Of a DNA stretch of 64,000 bases, positions 1 through 59,876 are shown piece after piece. Below the pieces are notes generated by a model that was not told where the DNA came from, searched no databases, and saw only the letters and a program-made list of their open reading frames with translations. How positions within the stretch are numbered: the first letter of the stretch is position 1; the number at the start of each line of letters is the position of its first letter. Location: the NCBI GenBank assembly GCA_028688325.1, contig JAQTYI010000001.1, forward strand, positions 31,088-95,087, in the 5' to 3' direction. Both the position numbers and the translations under genes were made by a program. The DNA is from Candidatus Portnoybacteria bacterium (GTDB lineage: Bacteria > Patescibacteriota > Minisyncoccia > Portnoybacterales > GWB1-42-6).

Positions 1-1538
1 ATCGTGGCTGGATCTTTCGGATTGGGATAAGCAGGCCGCAGAAAGAAAATCACGGGCGCCAAATTCTTGGGCAAATCCACGCCTTCGCCGTAATTGGCAA
101 CCGTGCCAACAAGCACACTTCCTTCGCCTTGTTGAAATTTCCTGGCCGCTTCCCTTGGCTTAATGCCATTCCCGTAGCTGATGGCGTCCACGCCTTCCTC
201 GCCGGCCAGCATCAGAAACTTCTCCCGCTCTTTATTTGACACAACCACCACCAAAGAGCGCGAACCGGCATCCTGCAAATCTCGACAGGCCTTTGCTATC
301 TTGCGCAATGACCGGGTTAAATCCTGGCGGCTGCGCGATTTCACGGCCAGATTGGGAGTATCCGAGGGAATCAGTATCTTAGCGTTCTCAACCGGAAAAT
401 CTGATTCAAAAGCATAGAAAGGAAACTTGATCCCCGATTCAAATCCCAATGTCTCCGCGTCACCGATAGTCGCCGAATAAGCCAGAGTCCGAGACGCTAA
501 TATCTTTTTGATAAGCGGAGCCACATAATAAGCCCTGATGACCAAACGATACTGCGTCTTGCTGTTCTCGCCGATCTCTTGCTCATAATAACCGTAGGTA
601 TAATTTAACGGCTTGCGATTGTCCGTTTCCAAGGAATACTCCAGCGACCGCAGATAGCGCGTCAAGCTTCTTGTTATCACTTCCGCGCGCTTCAATGTTT
701 CGTGCTGTTTTAACGCGTCAATCTTGCCATTTTTCATGGCCTGACGAACAGCGCGCATCATCGACCTTGAATCAATGCCGTAAAGATCGGACAGAAGATT
801 GTTTATTTCCGCCGGTTCAAGTAAAGTGGCGGTTCCCGGCTGTCGTTTTTTTACGACCTTCATCATCTTCCGGCGAAAACTGTCCAAAATCTGCGCCTCT
901 TGAATATCGGCATTGTAGAATAGATCCACCGCTTTCTCAAGATGATAATCAGTGATTTCGTAGCTCAAAGAGCCGCGGAATACCCTGGCGATCTGATGCA
1001 CTTCGTCGATTACCAGCCCGGCCGTCTCTCCCCATTCTTCCGAAAAAAGATGAGTGAAAAGATAAAAAGCCATGGTGCAGACCACGATGCCGCCTTGTTT
1101 GGCGTTCCATTTGTCGCCCAAATATGGGCAGGGCTCGGCGCCAGCCACTTCCGTTTCGCCCGTTTCCGCATCAACACGATGAGGACAATCAAGCAAAGAG
1201 CAGGGCGCTGCTTCGGCGGAAATCTCTCCGTTGTAATACAAACACGGATACTCGTTCCGGCCATACATCACTTTGACGTCCGGATGCAGTTTTTTGGCCT
1301 GATCCACAAGGGTCTTGTTGGGCGTGATGTAAAAAAGCGAAGTTTGCCCAGCCGCTTCCAGCGTTTTCAAAAATGTGTAGCCGATAGCGGTTTTTCCGGT
1401 GCCGGTTGGCAATTCCAGCAGCAGCGAACAATCATGTTTTTCAAGCAACATCAACGCTTTTCCCTGATTACCCATAATCTTCGGGTAACGATTCTTCGGC
1501 CAATGCGCCAAAAAATCCAGATGTTCCAGATGTTTCAT
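1..1538 (-). CDS. DinG/XPD (Rad3)-family ATP-dependent DNA helicase with Fe-S domain; 3' end runs off the window
   Basis: Manual reverse translation gives a continuous ORF from the ATG at 1536-1538 to position 1. It has a Walker A-like PTGTGKT, a DEAH-type box VIDEVHQ, a four-Cys cluster (C..C..C..C) typical of XPD/DinG Fe-S helicases, and a C-terminal YGEGVDLP motif. It is missing from the ORF track because no stop lies inside the window. Confidence 0.8.
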   Translation of the reverse strand, partial: MKHLEHLDFLAHWPKNRYPKIMGNQGKALMLLEKHDCSLLLELPTGTGKTAIGYTFLKTLEAAGQTSLFYITPNKTLVDQAKKLHPDVKVMYGRNEYPCLYYNGEISAEAAPCSLLDCPHRVDAETGETEVAGAEPCPYLGDKWNAKQGGIVVCTMAFYLFTHLFSEEWGETAGLVIDEVHQIARVFRGSLSYEITDYHLEKAVDLFYNADIQEAQILDSFRRKMMKVVKKRQPGTATLLEPAEINNLLSDLYGIDSRSMMRAVRQAMKNGKIDALKQHETLKRAEVITRSLTRYLRSLEYSLETDNRKPLNYTYGYYEQEIGENSKTQYRLVIRAYYVAPLIKKILASRTLAYSATIGDAETLGFESGIKFPFYAFESDFPVENAKILIPSDTPNLAVKSRSRQDLTRSLRKIAKACRDLQDAGSRSLVVVVSNKEREKFLMLAGEEGVDAISYGNGIKPREAARKFQQGEGSVLVGTVANYGEGVDLPKNLAPVIFFLRPAYPNPKDPAT

Positions 1539-1634
1539 TGTATTCTCCTTTCAAAGAACTTTCTTGGGAATCTTTTCTAAGGAAAAGATGGCTCCCTTTC
1601 CAAAAATTCCATGGCTGAAATTCTTGGAAAGAGT

Positions 1635-2298
1635 GGTGAGAATCAGTTTTGATTCTCACCCCATAGATTGCCGGACTGAACCGTACACTGCGACACGGAA
1701 CGGTACCTATCCGGACATAAAATTATATAAAGAAAAGAATTTTAATGTAATAATGATGGTAGGAGTTCAAATGAACTCCTACCCCGCACAAAGCAATTCC
1801 GGACCGCACGCCACACTACCGAAGCGTAGCACGCATCACATTGCCTTCATTATTTTTAGTTATGGCAGAACATGATTATCAGAGGTTCTGCCCCACGCCT
1901 AGGTCCGCTAAACTACGCCCCGCACCAGCATGCTGGACATTACCTAACCCTACAAAAAAGAACTTTTCAAAAACTTCAATGACTTGAAATCTTTGAAAAA
2001 TTGACAGGAGTTCTTTTTAAAAAACTCCTGCCCCGAAGAACGCTGCGGCATACTCAACGCTACTGCACCAGAGCGAACTAAGCCGCGCGCAATCATATAA
2101 CATATATGGGTAGTTTTAAAAATTTAATTTTGGCGGGGATTAAATTTCACCCCGCCCCATGCAGGAGTGAAGATTGCTCCACTGCAGAATACTCTGCGCT
2201 GCGATACCAGATTTTTATAAAGAACTTTTCAAAAAATTCAAGCAAGTTGAATACTTTGAAAAATTGGCAGGGAATTTTTTAGATTCCCTGCCCCGAAC
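1635..2298 (-). repeat. Array of six periodically spaced GC-clamped hairpins (F 1635-1660, A 1759-1782, E 1864-1892, B 2005-2030, D 2133-2156, C 2268-2290), each followed on the plus strand by CCCC(G/A)NN; on the minus strand each reads GGGG-stem-loop-stem followed by an A/U-rich tract (terminator-like)
   Basis: Read directly from the sequence. The stems differ between copies but all keep Watson-Crick pairing, e.g. caggagtt/aactcctg versus cagggaat/attccctg versus ggcagaac/gttctgcc. Spacing between hairpins is 118-140 bp. Copies B and C share about 80 bp of flank (aagaacttttcaaaaaNttcaa..ttgaa..ctttgaaaaattgNcagg). Confidence 0.6.
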
Positions 2299-2353
2299 CG
2301 AACAGGAGCGAAACGCGCGATACTTAAGACCGCTTAACACTACTTAGCTCCGA

Positions 2354-2941
2354 TTAGACAGCTTTCTTTGATTCCCACGATTCGATCCTGAACCGACCGA
2401 AAGGTCCGCGCCGCGCCGGCCGAAAATCACCCAGACCGACAGATGAGCCGGCCCTTTCCACGAGCGTTTTGGCCTTGTCTTCAGCGCAGGCCTTCTCATC
2501 AATCGTGAAAGTCGCCGAGAAGACCCATTTGTCAAACCGAGGCCGCACGATGCAGACCGTGATGCCCTTGCCGGGAATAATCCCTCTTCTCTTGTCCGTT
2601 TTCCATTTTTCCTCCTGATTGTGGAAAGGAAAAAAGATTTCCTCAATGGCCAGGAAAGACGGTAACAAAGTCGTATCCTTGGTGGAGATGGCCCGTTTTC
2701 CCTCCAACTTCACCAAACGGCCGGCTTCCACCAGGCAACTGAAAAGATAGCTGGCCGGGATACCGATTATTCCATTTTCGTTCTTGATCACCTTTTTGGC
2801 TGCTTCCTGATCCGGCGTCTTGTCGGCATCCTTGGCTTTCCTGGCGCCTGCTCCGCCAAAAAGCTCGTTTAACATGTCATCCGTCGCCGGATTCATCAGA
2901 ATCGGCGATACTCCCGTGAATTTGGCCTTTACAGTAATCAT
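2354..2941 (-). CDS. Hypothetical 195-aa protein with RAMP-superfamily (Cas6/Cas7-like) hallmarks
   Basis: Strong Shine-Dalgarno site (aaaggagg, 5-nt spacer) before the ATG. The N-terminus is a beta-strand (ITVKAKFTGVSPILMN) followed by GIPASYLFSCLVEAG, which resembles the RAMP IPGSSxKGxLR box. Near the C-terminus is a glycine-rich loop, VGLGDFRPARRGPFGRF (GxG-x7-GxFG). The assignment comes from motifs only. Confidence 0.35.
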   Translation of the reverse strand: MITVKAKFTGVSPILMNPATDDMLNELFGGAGARKAKDADKTPDQEAAKKVIKNENGIIGIPASYLFSCLVEAGRLVKLEGKRAISTKDTTLLPSFLAIEEIFFPFHNQEEKWKTDKRRGIIPGKGITVCIVRPRFDKWVFSATFTIDEKACAEDKAKTLVERAGSSVGLGDFRPARRGPFGRFRIESWESKKAV

Positions 2942-3186
2942 ATTGCCTCCTTTGCGTTTAAGGTCCGTCGAGCATAAATTGTTTGAAAGAACCCCTAAAA
3001 TCCATCGCCAAAAGCGATTATATACAGTATCATATTATGAATATTGTGTCAACCTATTGCCAAAAACATATTTTATGATAATATATAGAAGCTAAAAACT
3101 AATTCACGCCAAATAAAATACACGCTACGCAAAACGCCATTTGGCGTAGATTAGCGTTTATTGATTAGCGTAAAGTAGCTTCTATA

Positions 3187-3582: not shown

Positions 3583-4323
3583 ATGGCCAAAGGCGTCATT
3601 TTAGAAATTCGCGCTGGAGCCGGCGGAGACGAAGCCGCGATTTTCGCGGCTAATCTTTTCCGGATGTATTCAAGATACGCCCAATCGCAAGGTTGGAGCT
3701 TTTTGGTTATAGACGAAAGCCGCAATTCCATCGGCGGGCTCAAAGAAATAACCATGGAAATAACGGGCGCGGAGTCCTATGAACAGCTGAAAAATGAAAG
3801 CGGCGTGCATCGCGTCCAGCGGGTTCCCAAAACCGAAAAGAACGGCCGGGTGCACACTTCCACCGCCACTGTCGCCATCCTGCCCAAAGTTGACGCGGCC
3901 GAGATTAGAATCAATCCGCAAGACCTGCAAATTGACGCGGTGCGCTCTTCGGGACCGGGCGGACAAAATGTCAACAAACGCTCCACTGCCGTGCGAATAG
4001 TGCACTTGCCCACCAACACGGTCGTTTTTTCGCAGACCGAGCGTTCGCAGGCGCAAAACAAAGAAATTGCCATGGAGATCTTGCGCGCCAAGGTCTACGA
4101 AAATATGCGCAACAGGGAAATGGCCAGCTTGAGCCAGGAACGAAGAGCGCAAATCGGCACAGCCGACAGGTCCGAGAAAATACGCACCTACAATTATCCG
4201 CAAAACCGCATCACGGACCACCGCATCGGCAAAAGCTGGCACGACCTGGAAACTATCATCGACGGAAAAATGGATCCGATAGTCAAGGCCTTCCGCATAA
4301 CCGCTGATAAAACGGATTTGTAA
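3583..4323 (+). CDS. prfA: Peptide chain release factor 1 lacking the N-terminal domain 1
   Basis: The sequence aligns to RF1 from about residue 108 onward. It has the PxT (PKT) anticodon-mimic motif of the RF1 type and a GGQ motif. An in-frame TAA lies two codons upstream of the ATG, so the ORF cannot extend 5'. Confidence 0.85.
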
Positions 4324-10505: not shown

Positions 10506-10948
10506 GAAGTCCAAGCAAATCGGGCAATCGCCCTTCGCTACGCGAAGGGAGGAAAGTCCGAACTCTCTCTCCCTGCCACGGCGGGGTTAAAAAAGGTAGC
10601 GGCTAACAGCCGTCCATCGTAAGATGCGAGGTGCGAACAGTGACGATTTTATCCGAAAGGATAAAATCGCCCTCCGAAGCTTTACGCGTAGGAGGGCGCA
10701 ATTTGACCATAAGAAATTGCAAAATTTCCAAAGTCAAAATGAAACGGCAAAATCCTTACCGGGTGCAAGATCAAACTATGAGACCGCAAGCTTGGTTCTC
10801 ATAAGACAAGTAGATCGCCCGAGCCCCGCAGCAATGCGGGGCCCAGACAGATGATTGCCCATTCGCTCGTTGCATCGCCCAGGACTTGTCCTGAGCGAGC
10901 GCAGCGAGTCGAAGGACAAAATTCGGCTTATAGATTTGTTTGGACAAT
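10506..10948 (+). ncRNA. rnpB: RNase P RNA (bacterial type A-like)
   Basis: 5' GAAGUCCAAGC (P1); P3 hairpin cccttcgc-ta-cgcgaaggg; P4 5' strand AGGAAAGUCCGAAC; P4 3' strand ACAAAAUUCGGCUUAUA near the 3' end; the closing strand gatttgtttggac pairs with gtccaagcaaatc. A terminator hairpin follows at 10949-10980. Confidence 0.75.
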
Positions 10949-58888: not shown

Positions 58889-59266
58889 TTATTGTTCTTT
58901 CTCTTGGTATAAAAACGCCATTTCAATGGCAGCGGTTAAGATCAAAAAGATCAGCGCCGTCCACCAATAAAAAACCCGGTAAACATTCATTATTAAAAAT
59001 CCGACCAGCAACAAAGCGAGCAGGGTCCCTTCGCGGAACGAAACCGTCAGCAAGCTGTCGGACAACCTTCCCGCGCGCCGGCCGCGCCAGTAAAAACCGG
59101 CCAGACCGAACCCCCCGCACAGCGCCAGAAATAAGCTGGAAAACAGCAAAATTAAAATACCGGCGCCTCCGCCGTCGGGCGAAACAAACCATAAAATTGC
59201 CGTAAAAGAAATTAGAGCCAAAAAACTGGCCAGACCAATGCCCCAGAGATACGATTTTAAGGTCAT
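58889..59266 (-). CDS. Hypothetical small membrane protein
   Basis: 125 aa, about four hydrophobic helices. Confidence 0.45.
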   Translation of the reverse strand: MTLKSYLWGIGLASFLALISFTAILWFVSPDGGGAGILILLFSSLFLALCGGFGLAGFYWRGRRAGRLSDSLLTVSFREGTLLALLLVGFLIMNVYRVFYWWTALIFLILTAAIEMAFLYQEKEQ

Positions 59267-59436
59267 TTTCCGCGTTTATTTTATACTTTAATTTTAGTAT
59301 ATTTTCAATCAAAAAACAAGCACCGAATGTGGATAAAACACGCAGCAAACACACAGGGTAAAATAACCTAAAAAACCGCCCAAACAGGCGGTTTTCTGCG
59401 GCGGGGCTTACACCCCTTCGCTCACTTTGTTCGCTG

Positions 59437-59512
59437 CGGGCCGTACGGGATTCGAACCCGTGGTCTTCTCCGTGACAGGGAGACGCGTTAAGCCTGGCTA
59501 CGCTAACGGCCC
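59437..59512 (-). tRNA. tRNA-Asp (GTC)
   Basis: Manual fold: acceptor GGGCCGT/ACGGCCC, D arm GCGTAGCCAGGC, anticodon loop CTGTCAC, T arm GGTTCGAATCC. CCA is not encoded. Confidence 0.85.
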
Positions 59513-59537
59513 ATAAACATTTTCACGATAAAACTCG

Positions 59538-59611
59538 TAGCTGCGAGTGGACTCGAACCACTGACCTGGCGCTTATGAAGCGCCCGCTCTAACCGACTGA
59601 GCTACGCAGCC
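59538..59611 (-). tRNA. Elongator-type tRNA-Met (CAT), or Ile2 if the C34 is lysidinylated
   Basis: Acceptor GGCTGCG/CGCAGCT with G1·U72, D arm GCTCAGTCGGTTAGAGC, anticodon loop TTCATAA, T arm AGTGGTTCGAGTCCACT, pyrimidine11:purine24. Confidence 0.85.
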
Positions 59612-59805
59612 CAACTACGCTCCGATTTTCATCGGAGCTTCGATGGGCAAGTGATGTAATAAATAAACTTCTTGCCCTTCCGAAGCTCAAATGCAATTTG
59701 GGCGAAGGAGGGAGCTACGCAGCCATGCACCCTCTCTATAAAAAATAATAACGCCTGAACTAAATTCTGTCACCATTTAATTTACGGCGCTAATATTTTA
59801 ATATG

Positions 59806-59876
59806 TTGCGGGGCCCGGAATTGCACCGGGGTCTGGGGCTTATGAGACCCCCGAGATACTTCTTCTCTACCCCGCG
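59806..59876 (-). tRNA. Initiator-like tRNA-Met (CAT) with atypical D and T loops
   Basis: C1xA72 mismatch, A11:U24, and an acceptor/anticodon arm very similar to E. coli tRNA-fMet (CGCGGGG..CTCATAA..CCCCGCAA). The D loop AGAAGTA lacks G18G19 and the T loop is TGCAATT (G55). Confidence 0.6.

What the first reader, a model, noticed from the sequence alone, without database searches (positions are those of the whole stretch)
2354..2941. Stand-alone 195-aa protein with RAMP (Cas6/Cas7-like) hallmarks and a strong ribosome-binding site
The gene has an excellent Shine-Dalgarno site (aaaggagg) and so looks well translated. Its N-terminus is a beta-strand followed by GIPASYLFSCLVEAG, which resembles the RAMP IPGSSxKGxLR box. 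A glycine-rich loop GLGDFRPARRGPFGRF (GxG-x7-GxFG) sits near the C-terminus, where Cas6/Cas5/Cas7 proteins carry their G-rich loop. No cas1, cas2 or effector gene is present within 30 kb, and the adjacent repeats are not CRISPR-like. If real, this is a RAMP-fold RNA-binding or cleaving protein used outside CRISPR.
Basis: inference. Interest (0 to 1): 0.6.

Follow-up and report, generated by a model that had tools for sequence, protein, structure and literature searches.

The report
Vipr guide-RNA protein with helicase
The 195-aa gene encodes a Vipr protein, the small Cas7-like core of the recently described CRISPR-independent VIPR RNA-guided DNA-recognition systems, and the "non-CRISPR" repeats next to it are its guide RNAs, one of which spells out a conserved motif of a phage gene.

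Summary

The 815-nt gap downstream holds six guide-RNA (vrRNA) genes on the same strand. Each has 10-12 pentamers G-Y-N-N-N followed by GG plus a stem-loop. A DinG/XPD-like helicase gene follows; its best profile match is PADLOC typeIV_DinG (E 1e-37). The vipr-array-helicase layout recurs across Patescibacteria.

Read with the published "two bases, skip one" rule, guide vr6 matches 22/22 positions in eight IMG/VR phage contigs. Every match lies on the I-F-G-D-V-L-T-E-V-Y-G motif of a Vut_1/YhhQ transporter gene, with skipped bases at codon wobble positions.

Two features seem not to be covered in the preprint text I could read. The fifth repeat position tracks the target's wobble base, and guides look antisense-only.

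Verdict: a new member of a known, very recently described kind.

The parts
2354..2941 (-). vipr gene: a 195-aa minimal RAMP (Cas7-like) protein. NCBI lists it as MDD2753024.1, hypothetical protein PHT44_00170, Candidatus Portnoybacteria.
2946..2953 (-). Shine-Dalgarno sequence AAAGGAGG, 4 nt upstream of the vipr ATG.
   Evidence: Read directly from the sequence.
3034..3063 (-). Promoter-like site for vipr: TTGGCA, 18-nt spacer, CATAAT.
   Evidence: Consensus scan, 10 of 12 matches. The region holds 10 such sites against 2.6 expected. Function is inferred.
2266..2348 (-). vr1: 11 G-Y-N-N-N pentamers (2348-2294; three are degenerate) followed by GG and a stem-loop (2292-2266). It starts 5 nt after the vipr stop codon. 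It may be decaying, because it is the only guide of this genome with stop codons in the antisense decoding frame.
   Evidence: tail z -5.0.
2132..2207 (-). vr2: 10 pentamers (2207-2158) and a GG stem-loop tail (2157-2132). It is preceded by TTGAAT, a 16-nt spacer and TATAAA.
2003..2088 (-). vr3: 11 pentamers (2088-2034) and a tail (2033-2003). A promoter-like site lies at 2120-2092. It has a tentative target, a 79-aa ORF on two IMG/VR contigs (21 of 22 positions, in frame).
1864..1963 (-). vr4: 12 pentamers (1953-1894; possibly 14, starting at 1963) and a tail (1893-1864).
   Evidence: No exact target in IMG/VR.
1758..1844 (-). vr5: 12 pentamers (1844-1785) and a tail (1784-1758).
   Evidence: No exact target in IMG/VR.
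1635..1716 (-). vr6: 11 pentamers (1716-1662) and a tail (1661-1635). Its own promoter-like site lies at 1751-1722 (ATTACA, 18-nt spacer, TATAAT). The guide is antisense to the I-F-G-D-V-L-T-E-V-Y-G motif of Vut_1/YhhQ genes.
   Evidence: Target evidence.
1..1538 (-). vap gene: DinG/XPD-family SF2 helicase, 596 aa in full. The window holds the first 512 codons. Four cysteines (C98, C113, C118, C137) sit where XPD and DinG carry their Fe-S cluster.
   Evidence: Full gene from L001. PADLOC typeIV_DinG E 1.4e-37, full length. Helicase_C_2, DEAD and ResIII domains. phrog_2488 DNA helicase. Thermoplasma XPD 4a15, E 1.8e-8. Found next to vipr in 23 Patescibacteria loci. The cysteine positions are read from the sequence; the comparison with the XPD/DinG Fe-S cluster position comes from my own knowledge and was not tested.
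1539..1634 (-). Leader between vr6 and the helicase start. It contains an AT-rich hairpin (copy of repeat D1) and the helicase Shine-Dalgarno site (GAAAGGAGA).
   Evidence: conserved in L095 and L097.
2208..2265 (-). Inter-unit element after vr1: AATTTTTCAAA, an AT-rich hairpin, and a promoter-like TTGAAT/TATAAA pair for vr2. A second copy follows vr3 (2002-1964).
   Evidence: Repeat family D1. The element is conserved in strains L095 and L097 as TTGAAA, spacer, TATAAT.

Best explanation
The gene encodes Vipr, the single-RRM RAMP protein of a VIPR (Viral Interference Programmable Repeat) system. This system sits in the chromosome of a Candidatus Portnoybacteria (Patescibacteria/CPR) bacterium.

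The cassette reads, on the minus strand: promoter, vipr, six vrRNA genes, DinG/XPD-like helicase. Three more vrRNA genes lie just outside the window. Each vrRNA is about 80-100 nt. It consists of 10-12 pentamers (G, pyrimidine, three variable bases) and ends in GG plus a stem-loop that also looks like an intrinsic terminator. Most units have their own sigma-70-like promoter.

The proposed mechanism is by homology with the solved SUSP1 complex. One Vipr protomer binds each pentamer. The protomers form a helical filament that buries the G-Y bases in the G-loop and thumb pockets. The window protein keeps D172, F173, R174 and R133, which align with SUSP1 D177, W178, R179 and R138. The filament presents the variable bases to double-stranded DNA in steps of three target nucleotides.

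Shown here: the two bases after G-Y follow the published 'NN, skip one' code. Guide vr6 is a perfect 22/22 antisense match to codon positions 1-2 of a conserved Vut_1/YhhQ motif carried by diverse phage contigs.

Inferred: binding blocks transcription or replication of invading DNA, and the helicase is recruited to the R-loop as the effector, as CasDinG is in type IV-A CRISPR.

Also inferred, from statistics: in this helicase-linked clade the fifth repeat position, which is an invariant G in canonical GGY repeats, mirrors the target's third codon base. The guide triplets therefore copy a contiguous target sequence.
For: Protein:
- A profile of 62 homologues hits PDB 36pp_D 'SUSP1 Vipr protein' at E 3.3e-11 over residues 2-190. 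hhalign gives 97.2% probability with 167 aligned columns.
- The AF2 model has pLDDT 90.5 and pTM 0.84.
- The G-loop GLGDFRP aligns with GVGDWRP of SUSP1, whose D177, W178, R179 and R138 contact the GGY bases (bioRxiv 10.64898/2026.04.26.720927).

Guides:
- There are six tracts of 10-14 pentamers on the vipr strand. No tract of 10 or more repeats occurs elsewhere in the 128 kb of both strands.
- Over 67 pentamers, position 1 is G in 53 and position 2 is a pyrimidine in 65. Positions 3-5 are mixed.
- Every tract is followed by a hairpin (z scores -2.3 to -5.8). Five of seven stem pairs show compensatory changes across units and loci.
- Promoter-like and terminator-like sites lie on the same strand.

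Conservation:
- The same arrays are present in L004, L009, L014, L017, L019, L023, L025 and other loci.
- The helicase lies downstream of vipr in 23 Patescibacteria loci.
- Strains with 88% and 69% identical Vipr keep the tails but carry different guides. The 69% strain has the cassette in a different chromosomal neighbourhood.

Code and target:
- A pattern from only nine repeats of vr6 (18 specified bases) gave 11 IMG/VR hits. In 8 of them the two repeats left out of the pattern also match, giving 22/22.
- All 8 hits lie in Vut_1 genes (PF02592) that are only 42-50% identical to one another. The skipped base falls at the codon wobble position.
- One of these genes lies two genes from a DpdA gene.
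- Equivalent 18-base patterns from vr1, vr2, vr4 and vr5 gave 0 hits each, which serves as an empirical null.

The published description fits: 9-16 pentanucleotide repeats, a 3' tail, alternative YNNNG repeats, and helicase accessory genes (bioRxiv 10.64898/2026.04.26.720920).
Against: - Nothing here shows that the vrRNAs are transcribed, that they bind Vipr, or that DNA rather than RNA is the target.
- Only one of nine guides has a clear database target. The eight matching contigs are homologous genes, so they count as roughly one independent event, with a chance expectation of about 0.01 per 22-base pattern.
- The matching phage contigs have 46-69% G+C. They are unlikely to be phages of this 47.5% G+C CPR host, so the true natural target is unidentified.
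- Guide vr9 decodes to a class B penicillin-binding-protein motif, which is a cellular rather than a typical phage gene.
- SUSP1 H17, which contacts the first G, is N17 here.
- A single-sequence tblastn against 50,697 phage genomes found nothing. The link to SUSP1 therefore rests on profile methods.
- The VIPR literature is two preprints.
Confidence: 0.85

Rival explanations
1. The system is a VIPR locus, but it has been domesticated. The guides repress the bacterium's own genes (for example a penicillin-binding protein or a transporter) as a programmable regulator, rather than attacking foreign DNA.
For: - The cassette is chromosomal and sits between rpmE/prfA and rpsB/tsf.
- Two decoded guides correspond to families that are mainly cellular: Vut_1/YhhQ for vr6 and a class B PBP transpeptidase for vr9.
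- A Vut_1 gene lies 1.5 kb from a vipr gene in another Patescibacteria contig, L005.
- VIPR acts as a transcriptional silencer in the published work.
Against: - No match above shuffled controls for any of vr1-vr9 was found in the roughly 72 kb of this genome that I could read.
- The one Patescibacteria Vut_1 gene seen (L005) has a different motif, ITTDVIGEVYG, and scores only 15/22.
- Guides differ completely between strains with 88% identical Vipr. That is the turnover expected of an arms race rather than of a housekeeping regulator.
- The preprint found no self-targets for types III and V.
Confidence: 0.1
2. The guides target messenger RNA rather than DNA. Vipr-vrRNA filaments bind transcripts of foreign genes, as type III and type VII Cas7 complexes do, and the helicase acts on RNA or RNA-DNA hybrids.
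For: - Guides look exclusively antisense to coding sequence. Decoded in the antisense frame, 95 guides have 16 stop codons against 29.1 +/- 4.0 in shuffles. The sense frame shows no depletion, with 57 against 49.
- vr6, vr9 and vr3 are all antisense.
- The closest structural neighbours are the RNA-targeting Csm3, Cmr4/Cmr6 and type VII Cas7.
Against: - The characterised Vipr complexes bind double-stranded DNA on either strand.
- The partner is a DNA-helicase family, DinG/XPD.
- An antisense bias could also come from how guides arise, or from a preference for the non-template DNA strand.
Confidence: 0.12
3. The locus is a stripped-down or decaying type IV-like CRISPR-Cas module (a Cas7/Csf2-like protein plus CasDinG) that has lost its array and other subunits. 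The pentamer tracts are unrelated repeats.
For: - The helicase gives a full-length match to PADLOC typeIV_DinG (CAS-IV-A) at E 1.4e-37.
Against: - There is no CRISPR array in the window, and no Csf1, Cas5 or Cas6 homologue among 57 ORFs.
- The protein matches no Cas profile in Pfam, NCBIfam or PADLOC, but it does match Vipr.
- The pentamer arrays are conserved with the gene across dozens of loci.
- One guide encodes a gene motif under the VIPR code.
- The cassette is intact and conserved, not decaying.
Confidence: 0.03
4. This is the first reader's idea: a stand-alone Cas6-like RAMP endoribonuclease that binds and cleaves the neighbouring hairpin RNAs.
For: - The fold is RAMP and has a G-rich loop.
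- Hairpins are adjacent.
- vr1 starts 5 nt after the vipr stop codon, so it would need processing if it is co-transcribed.
Against: - The protein has a single RRM and no Cas6 family match.
- Most units have their own promoter-like site and a terminator-like tail, so cleavage is not required.
- Conservation lies in the G-Y periodicity. The hairpin sequence is not conserved.
Confidence: 0.04

Closest known systems
Type II VIPR of Escherichia phage SUSP1 and a Pseudomonas fulva prophage (Vipr + vrRNA; PDB 36pp; bioRxiv 10.64898/2026.04.26.720920 and 10.64898/2026.04.26.720927)
   Same: - The Vipr proteins are homologous and about 200 aa long (28% identity to the profile; E 3e-11).
- They share a single RRM, a thumb and a G-loop with the D-aromatic-R-P motif.
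- The guide RNAs have 9-16 pentanucleotide repeats followed by a structured 3' tail, arranged in arrays beside the gene.
- The target is read in steps of three nucleotides, with the two bases after the pyrimidine matching codon positions 1-2.
- There are no cas1 or cas2 genes and no CRISPR array.
   Different: - The repeat here is N-G-Y-N-N (one conserved G) rather than G-G-Y-N-N. SUSP1 H17, which reads the first G, is N17 here.
- The tail is a simple GG plus hairpin rather than a pseudoknot.
- The accessory gene is a 596-aa DinG-like helicase rather than a small DNA-binding protein.
- The cassette is chromosomal in Patescibacteria rather than phage-borne.
- Guides appear antisense-only, whereas SUSP1 targets lie on both strands.
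The helicase-associated VIPR type of the same preprint. By elimination this is type IV: types III-V carry 'nucleases or helicases', and only III and V carry nucleases.
   Same: - A helicase accessory gene is present.
- The repeat consensus is an alternative one; the preprint lists YNNNG.
- The context is cellular.
   Different: - I could not see the preprint's figures or tables, so the type assignment is an inference.
- The preprint text reports target searches only for types II, III and V.
- The preprint text I could read mentions neither a CasDinG affinity for the helicase, nor a Vut_1 target, nor the position-5/wobble relation, nor an antisense bias.
Type IV-A CRISPR-Cas (Csf2/Cas7 filament plus CasDinG/Csf4 helicase, nuclease-free interference)
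   Same: - A RAMP backbone protein is paired with a DinG-family helicase and no nuclease.
- The helicase gives a full-length match to the PADLOC typeIV_DinG model (E 1.4e-37).
   Different: - There is no CRISPR array, Cas6, Csf1 or Csf3/Cas5.
- The guides are pentamer-repeat RNAs with a gapped code, not contiguous 32-nt spacers.
- From my own knowledge (not tested here), characterised CasDinG has only a vestigial Fe-S domain. This helicase has four cysteines at that place and, among solved structures, is nearest to archaeal XPD.
Type III and type VII Cas7 proteins (Csm3, Cmr4/Cmr6, Cas7-11 domains)
   Different: - Sequence identity is only 12-17%, and there is no profile-level sequence match.
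- Those proteins bind contiguous crRNA spacers with a flip at every sixth base and target RNA.
- Vipr is smaller and works without Cas5, Cas10 or Cas11 partners.

Membership tests
VIPR system (Vipr + vrRNA) | Protein is homologous to an experimentally characterised Vipr. | tested here: met
   hmmsearch of the family profile against PDB finds 36pp_D 'SUSP1 Vipr protein' at E 3.3e-11, covering residues 2-190 of 2-191. hhalign gives 97.2%. The gene also matches phrog_4652 at full length.
VIPR system (Vipr + vrRNA) | Minimal RAMP architecture: one RRM core, a thumb and a glycine-rich loop, with no second RRM. | tested here: met
VIPR system (Vipr + vrRNA) | Residues that hold the conserved repeat bases (SUSP1 H17, R138, D177, W178, R179). 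| tested here: inconclusive
   R133, D172 and R174 are identical to their SUSP1 counterparts. F173 replaces W178. R133, F173 and R174 are invariant, and D172 is nearly invariant (90% or more), in the 62 homologues. H17 is replaced by a nearly invariant N17, in step with the loss of the first conserved G in the repeats.
VIPR system (Vipr + vrRNA) | Flanking non-coding RNA genes made of 9-16 pentanucleotide repeats, with a conserved G/Y core alternating with hypervariable bases, followed by a conserved structured 3' tail. | tested here: met
   There are six units of 10-12 (up to 14) pentamers. G is 79% at position 1 and Y is 97% at position 2; the rest is variable. GG-hairpin tails carry compensatory changes. 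The consensus is the YNNNG variant named in the preprint. Guides differ between strains while tails persist. Transcription was not tested.
VIPR system (Vipr + vrRNA) | No CRISPR array and no adaptation genes; a one- or two-gene locus with a vap accessory gene. | tested here: met
   No CRISPR-like tandem repeats in the window. No Cas1 or Cas2 among 57 ORFs. The helicase is conserved beside vipr in 23 loci.
VIPR system (Vipr + vrRNA) | Gapped recognition code: the variable dinucleotides match targets with one skipped base, usually the codon wobble position. | tested here: met
   vr6 matches 22/22 in 8 phage contigs, with skipped bases at wobble positions of a Vut_1 motif. vr3 is tentative at 21/22. 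Four other guides gave no hit.
VIPR system (Vipr + vrRNA) | Vipr-vrRNA ribonucleoprotein forms, binds double-stranded DNA and silences it. | not testable with these tools
   This needs small-RNA sequencing, pull-down, and binding and reporter assays.
CRISPR-Cas type IV-A | CRISPR array plus Csf1, Csf2 (Cas7), Csf3 (Cas5) and Cas6. | tested here: not met
   No array. No Csf1, Csf3 or Cas6 hit in PADLOC among 57 ORFs. The protein itself hits no Cas profile.
CRISPR-Cas type IV-A | CasDinG (Csf4) helicase. | tested here: inconclusive
   PADLOC typeIV_DinG matches at E 1.4e-37 over the full length. However, phmmer against PDB finds archaeal XPD first (E 1.8e-8) and finds no CasDinG chain. NCBIfam gives only sub-threshold DinG and YoaA matches.

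The most novel reading that the evidence does not exclude
The helicase-linked Patescibacteria clade may use a different version of the VIPR code. Only two RNA bases (G-Y) per repeat would be sequestered, and all three variable bases would mirror a contiguous target triplet. Guides would be made only antisense to coding sequence and aimed at the most conserved protein motifs of foreign genes. With its CasDinG-like partner, this would be a living intermediate between phage VIPR systems and type IV-A CRISPR-Cas.
Probability: 0.3. Interest if true: 0.75.

Novelty: new member of a known kind. Interest (0 to 1): 0.5.

Why it matters
VIPR was described only in April-June 2026. It was presented as a CRISPR-independent and possibly pre-CRISPR way of recognising DNA, using a small RAMP protein and a repeat-encoded, gapped guide.

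This window supplies a clean chromosomal example from the candidate phyla radiation, with nine guides and a DinG-like helicase. It adds an independent check of the published code, because the code predicts a specific conserved motif of a phage-borne Vut_1/YhhQ gene. In at least one contig that gene lies beside the DpdA DNA-modification gene.

Three points, if confirmed, extend what the preprint text I could read reports:
- The helicase partner resembles the type IV-A CRISPR helicase.
- In this clade the fifth repeat base carries the target's wobble base.
- The guides are antisense-biased.

These points bear on how the code works and on the proposed descent of CRISPR from VIPR. They are directly testable with a 3-kb cassette.

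Tried and rejected
1. Pfam, NCBIfam and PADLOC scans of the protein gave no hit. Rfam found nothing in the array region.

2. tblastn of the single protein against 50,697 phage genomes found no match.

3. I searched for self-targets of vr1-vr6 in the window plus L001 under eight pairing rules: NN with 0, 1, 2 or 3 skipped bases; NNN with 0, 1 or 2 skipped bases; and a shifted register. Nothing exceeded shuffled controls, apart from the array matching itself. The one exception was a marginal 18/22 for vr1 in a shifted register at window 59143 (control maximum 17), which I treat as chance. The same search for vr7-vr9 was negative.

4. An all-against-all search of 75 Patescibacteria guides against about 0.7 Mb of fetched loci showed no signal under any rule. 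None of the other guides hits the Vut_1 contigs.

5. IMG/VR scans with nine-repeat patterns of vr1, vr2, vr4 and vr5 gave 0 hits each. vr9 gave 0 hits in IMG/VR. In the JGI metagenomes it gave a single 27/32 hit, in an actinobacterial PbpA gene. This confirms the decoded motif but is not the true target.

6. The vr3 hit in a terminase gene (L092, 19/22) was rejected as chance, because the skipped bases fall on codon position 2.

7. Searching the protein database with decoded guide peptides failed.

8. I considered a TIGR-Tas-like or retron-like array and dropped the idea once the 5-nt periodicity and the Vipr match were clear.

9. The exact VIPR type number could not be confirmed, because the preprint's figures and tables are not held.
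Full report
**The observation.** The ORF at 2354-2941 on the minus strand is real. It is 195 aa, starts with ATG, and is preceded by AAAGGAGG at 2953-2946, four bases upstream. Both fall in the most conserved blocks of a 62-sequence alignment, whose invariant residues include R133, P134, G169, F173, R174, P175, G179, F181 and G182. Pfam, NCBIfam and PADLOC have no model for the protein. PHROGs does: phrog_4652, function unknown, E 1.7e-17 over the full length. The protein is MDD2753024.1, annotated as hypothetical, on a 788,852-bp contig of a Candidatus Portnoybacteria MAG.

**The family.** A profile of the alignment searched against all PDB sequences hits one chain convincingly: 36pp_D, 'SUSP1 Vipr protein', E 3.3e-11, aligned end to end. 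hhalign gives 97.2% probability. Vipr is the protein of the VIPR systems described in two 2026 bioRxiv preprints, 10.64898/2026.04.26.720920 and 10.64898/2026.04.26.720927. According to these preprints:
- A roughly 20-kDa ancestral RAMP polymerises on vrRNAs made of 9-16 YNNGG pentamers plus a 3' tail.
- The GGY bases are buried by the protein.
- The NN bases read double-stranded DNA with one target base skipped per repeat.
- There are seven types, some with alternative repeats (NNNGG, YNNNG, NNNNG) and accessory genes that include nucleases and helicases.

The SUSP1 residues that hold the repeat bases are D177, W178, R179 and R138. They align with D172, F173, R174 and R133 here, all invariant or nearly so in the family. 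H17, which reads the first G, is a nearly invariant N17. The family is large. It has 6,551 clusters at 50% identity with E no higher than 1e-3 in 1.84 billion representatives.

**The guide array.** The 815-nt gap between the vipr stop codon (2354) and the next gene (start at 1538) is not a set of generic hairpins. On the vipr strand it contains six tracts with strict 5-nt periodicity. Each is followed by GG and a stem-loop. The tracts are vr1 2348-2294, vr2 2207-2158, vr3 2088-2034, vr4 1953-1894, vr5 1844-1785 and vr6 1716-1662.
- Over 67 pentamers, position 1 is G in 53 and C in 13. Position 2 is a pyrimidine in 65. Positions 3-5 are mixed.
- No tract of ten or more such repeats exists anywhere else on either strand of the 64 kb.
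- The six tails fold far better than shuffles (z -2.3 to -5.8). Their stems differ in sequence while keeping pairing. Across 18 distinct tails from four genomes, five of seven stem pairs show changes on both sides. That alignment was constructed from individually detected hairpins, so only the diversity of pair types is informative.
- Promoter-like sites precede vipr, vr3 and vr6. Three tails score as intrinsic terminators.
- The AT-rich element between units carries a conserved TTGAA(A/T), 16-17-nt spacer, TATAA(T/A) promoter in this genome and in two related strains.

**The helicase.** The next gene (1538 to 1 on the minus strand, truncated by the window; 596 aa in full) is a DinG/XPD-family helicase. 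It has Helicase_C_2, DEAD and ResIII domains and matches phrog_2488 'DNA helicase'. Among solved structures its best match is Thermoplasma XPD (E 1.8e-8). In PADLOC it matches typeIV_DinG, the helicase of type IV-A CRISPR, at E 1.4e-37 over residues 35-576 of the protein and positions 33-561 of the 575-position model. Housekeeping DinG and YoaA models score far below their cut-offs.

**Conservation.** Seventy-seven related loci were fetched from GTDB representative genomes.
- The helicase lies next to vipr in 23 of the Patescibacteria-type loci. It is downstream on the same strand in all but one (L026).
- The Patescibacteria-type loci without the helicase are on contigs that end within about 2.6 kb of vipr.
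- Those loci carry the same arrays, 9-14 G-Y-N-N-N repeats plus a GG hairpin, with up to 15 units in L025.
- In this genome three more units follow the helicase, just outside the window.
- A strain with 88% identical Vipr has the same synteny and nearly the same tails but entirely different guides. A 69% relative has the cassette between clpP and pth instead of between rpmE and rpsB. The cassette is therefore portable, and its guides turn over.
- IMG/VR holds 131 relatives at 31-42% identity. None of the best 80 has this helicase. Several of the ten inspected have the canonical G at position 5, up to 84%.

The helicase-linked form with one conserved G thus appears to be a Patescibacteria chromosomal clade. 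By elimination from the preprint's text it should be type IV: types III-V carry nucleases or helicases, and only III and V carry nucleases. I could not check this against the preprint's figures.

**The code and the vr6 target.** I tested the published code directly. I took the two bases after G-Y from only the last nine repeats of vr6, with one free base between them (18 specified bases). Scanning IMG/VR with this pattern gave 11 hits.
- In 8 hits the two 5' repeats that were not part of the pattern also match, giving 22/22, while the free bases vary.
- All 8 hits lie in Vut_1/YhhQ-family genes (PF02592, E 1e-51 and 2e-46 for the two scanned). These genes share only 42-50% identity and come from contigs of 46-69% G+C.
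- Every site is the motif I-F-G-D-V-L-T-E-V-Y-G. The guide is antisense, the specified bases are codon positions 1-2, and the free base is the wobble position.
- One such gene lies two genes from a DpdA gene (PF23859). Others sit among RecA, SbcC-like and clamp-loader genes. Phage-encoded YhhQ as part of 7-deazaguanine DNA modification is known to me from the literature but was not tested here.
- Equivalent patterns from four other guides gave no hits. This sets the chance rate at about 0-3 hits per 18-base pattern, or about 0.01 per 22-base pattern.

The eight hits are homologous, so they count as roughly one independent event. They are unlikely to be phages of this host. The real natural target remains unknown.

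**Other guides.**
- vr3 matches 21/22, in frame, in a 79-aa ORF on two IMG/VR contigs. This is only suggestive, since about 0.2-0.6 such matches are expected by chance. A third hit is out of frame in a terminase gene and I rejected it.
- vr9 lies outside the window. Before any search I decoded it to A-D-I-L-A-I-V-S-H-P-K-Y-D-P-N, a class B penicillin-binding-protein motif. The only metagenome hit is that exact motif position in an actinobacterial PbpA gene, matching 27/32. This raises the possibility of cellular or self targets.
- I found no self-target in the roughly 72 kb of this genome available to me.

**Two statistical observations beyond the preprint text I could read.** In 95 guides from this clade I decoded each guide as antisense, taking the wobble base from position 5 of the preceding repeat.
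- This decoding gives 16 stop codons. Shuffling position 5 within guides gives 29.1 +/- 4.0, and none of 500 shuffles was as low.
- Taking the wobble base from any other repeat shows no depletion. The sense orientation shows none either, at 57 against 49.
- In vr6, position 5 picks the family-consensus residue at all five ambiguous codons. In vr9 it picks Y, D and N of the YDPN signature.

Position 5, the slot of the first G in canonical repeats, therefore carries the complement of the target's third codon base. The guides also look antisense-only. Whether position 5 actually pairs, or merely records how the guide arose, cannot be decided here. The antisense bias leaves RNA targeting open as a minority reading.

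**Verdict.** The finding is a correct call of a non-CRISPR RAMP. More precisely, the protein is the Vipr of a helicase-coupled VIPR system, and its guide array lies in the adjacent 'repeats'. It is a new member of a kind published months ago, not a new kind. The value of this locus is threefold. It is a clean CPR example. It provides an independent confirmation of the gapped code with a named target motif. It also yields three testable extensions: the CasDinG-like partner, the position-5/wobble relation, and the antisense bias.

Noticed in passing
L001 13196-13527 (same contig, just beyond the left end of the window, downstream of the helicase stop): Three more vrRNA units (vr7-vr9) lie between the helicase and rpsB. 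vr9 has 16 repeats and decodes antisense to ADILAIVSHPKYDPN, a class B penicillin-binding-protein transpeptidase motif. Its best database match is an actinobacterial PbpA gene at 27/32 (L099).
   Followed up: partly
L001 19051-20588 (about 6 kb beyond the helicase, outside the window): A serine recombinase gene (Resolvase/Recombinase/Zn_ribbon_recom) lies next to a terminase large-subunit gene. A prophage or integrated element may therefore sit close to the VIPR cassette. None of the guides matched the part I could read.
   Followed up: partly
window 2208-2265, 1964-2002 and 1539-1634 (minus strand): A conserved AT-rich inter-unit element (AATTTTTCAAA, a hairpin, then TTGAAn, a 16-17-nt spacer and TATAAn) follows vr1, vr3 and vr6. 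It recurs in related strains L095 and L097. It probably combines the terminator U-tract of one vrRNA with the promoter of the next.
   Followed up: partly
L005 1745-2350: A Paceibacterota contig carries its own Vut_1/YhhQ homologue 1.5 kb upstream of its vipr gene. Its motif is ITTDVIGEVYG, not the IFGDVLTEVYG spelled by vr6 of the window, and it scores only 15/22.
   Followed up: partly
L085 7974-9338 and L090 1612-2535: In the phage contigs hit by vr6, the Vut_1 gene sits next to a ParB_N + DUF6610 protein (L085) or near a DpdA gene (L090). This suggests 7-deazaguanine DNA-modification modules.
   Followed up: partly
window 3583-4323 (+): The release-factor gene next to rpmE encodes only 246 aa with PCRF and RF-1 domains. 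To my knowledge (not checked here) this is about 100 residues shorter than typical RF1/RF2. The same short form occurs in the related strains (241 aa in L095).
   Followed up: no
window 10512-10946 (+); 59436-59876 (-): A bacterial RNase P class A RNA scores only 109 bits against a 100-bit cut-off. There is also a cluster of three tRNA genes: Asp-GTC and two Met-CAT.
   Followed up: no
window, ORFs outside the cassette: The PADLOC scan of 57 ORFs gave matches that I did not assign to genes or examine: dCTPase (2 ORFs, E 8e-19), PDC-M51B (9e-17), PDC-S48 (3e-12), RT-Protease_XI (9e-10) and VakA (2e-8). Some may be housekeeping homologues.
   Followed up: no
window 59143-59175 (+): vr1 read in a shifted register (positions 4-5, skip one) matches 18/22 here, against a maximum of 17 in 30 shuffles. 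I regard this as chance.
   Followed up: no
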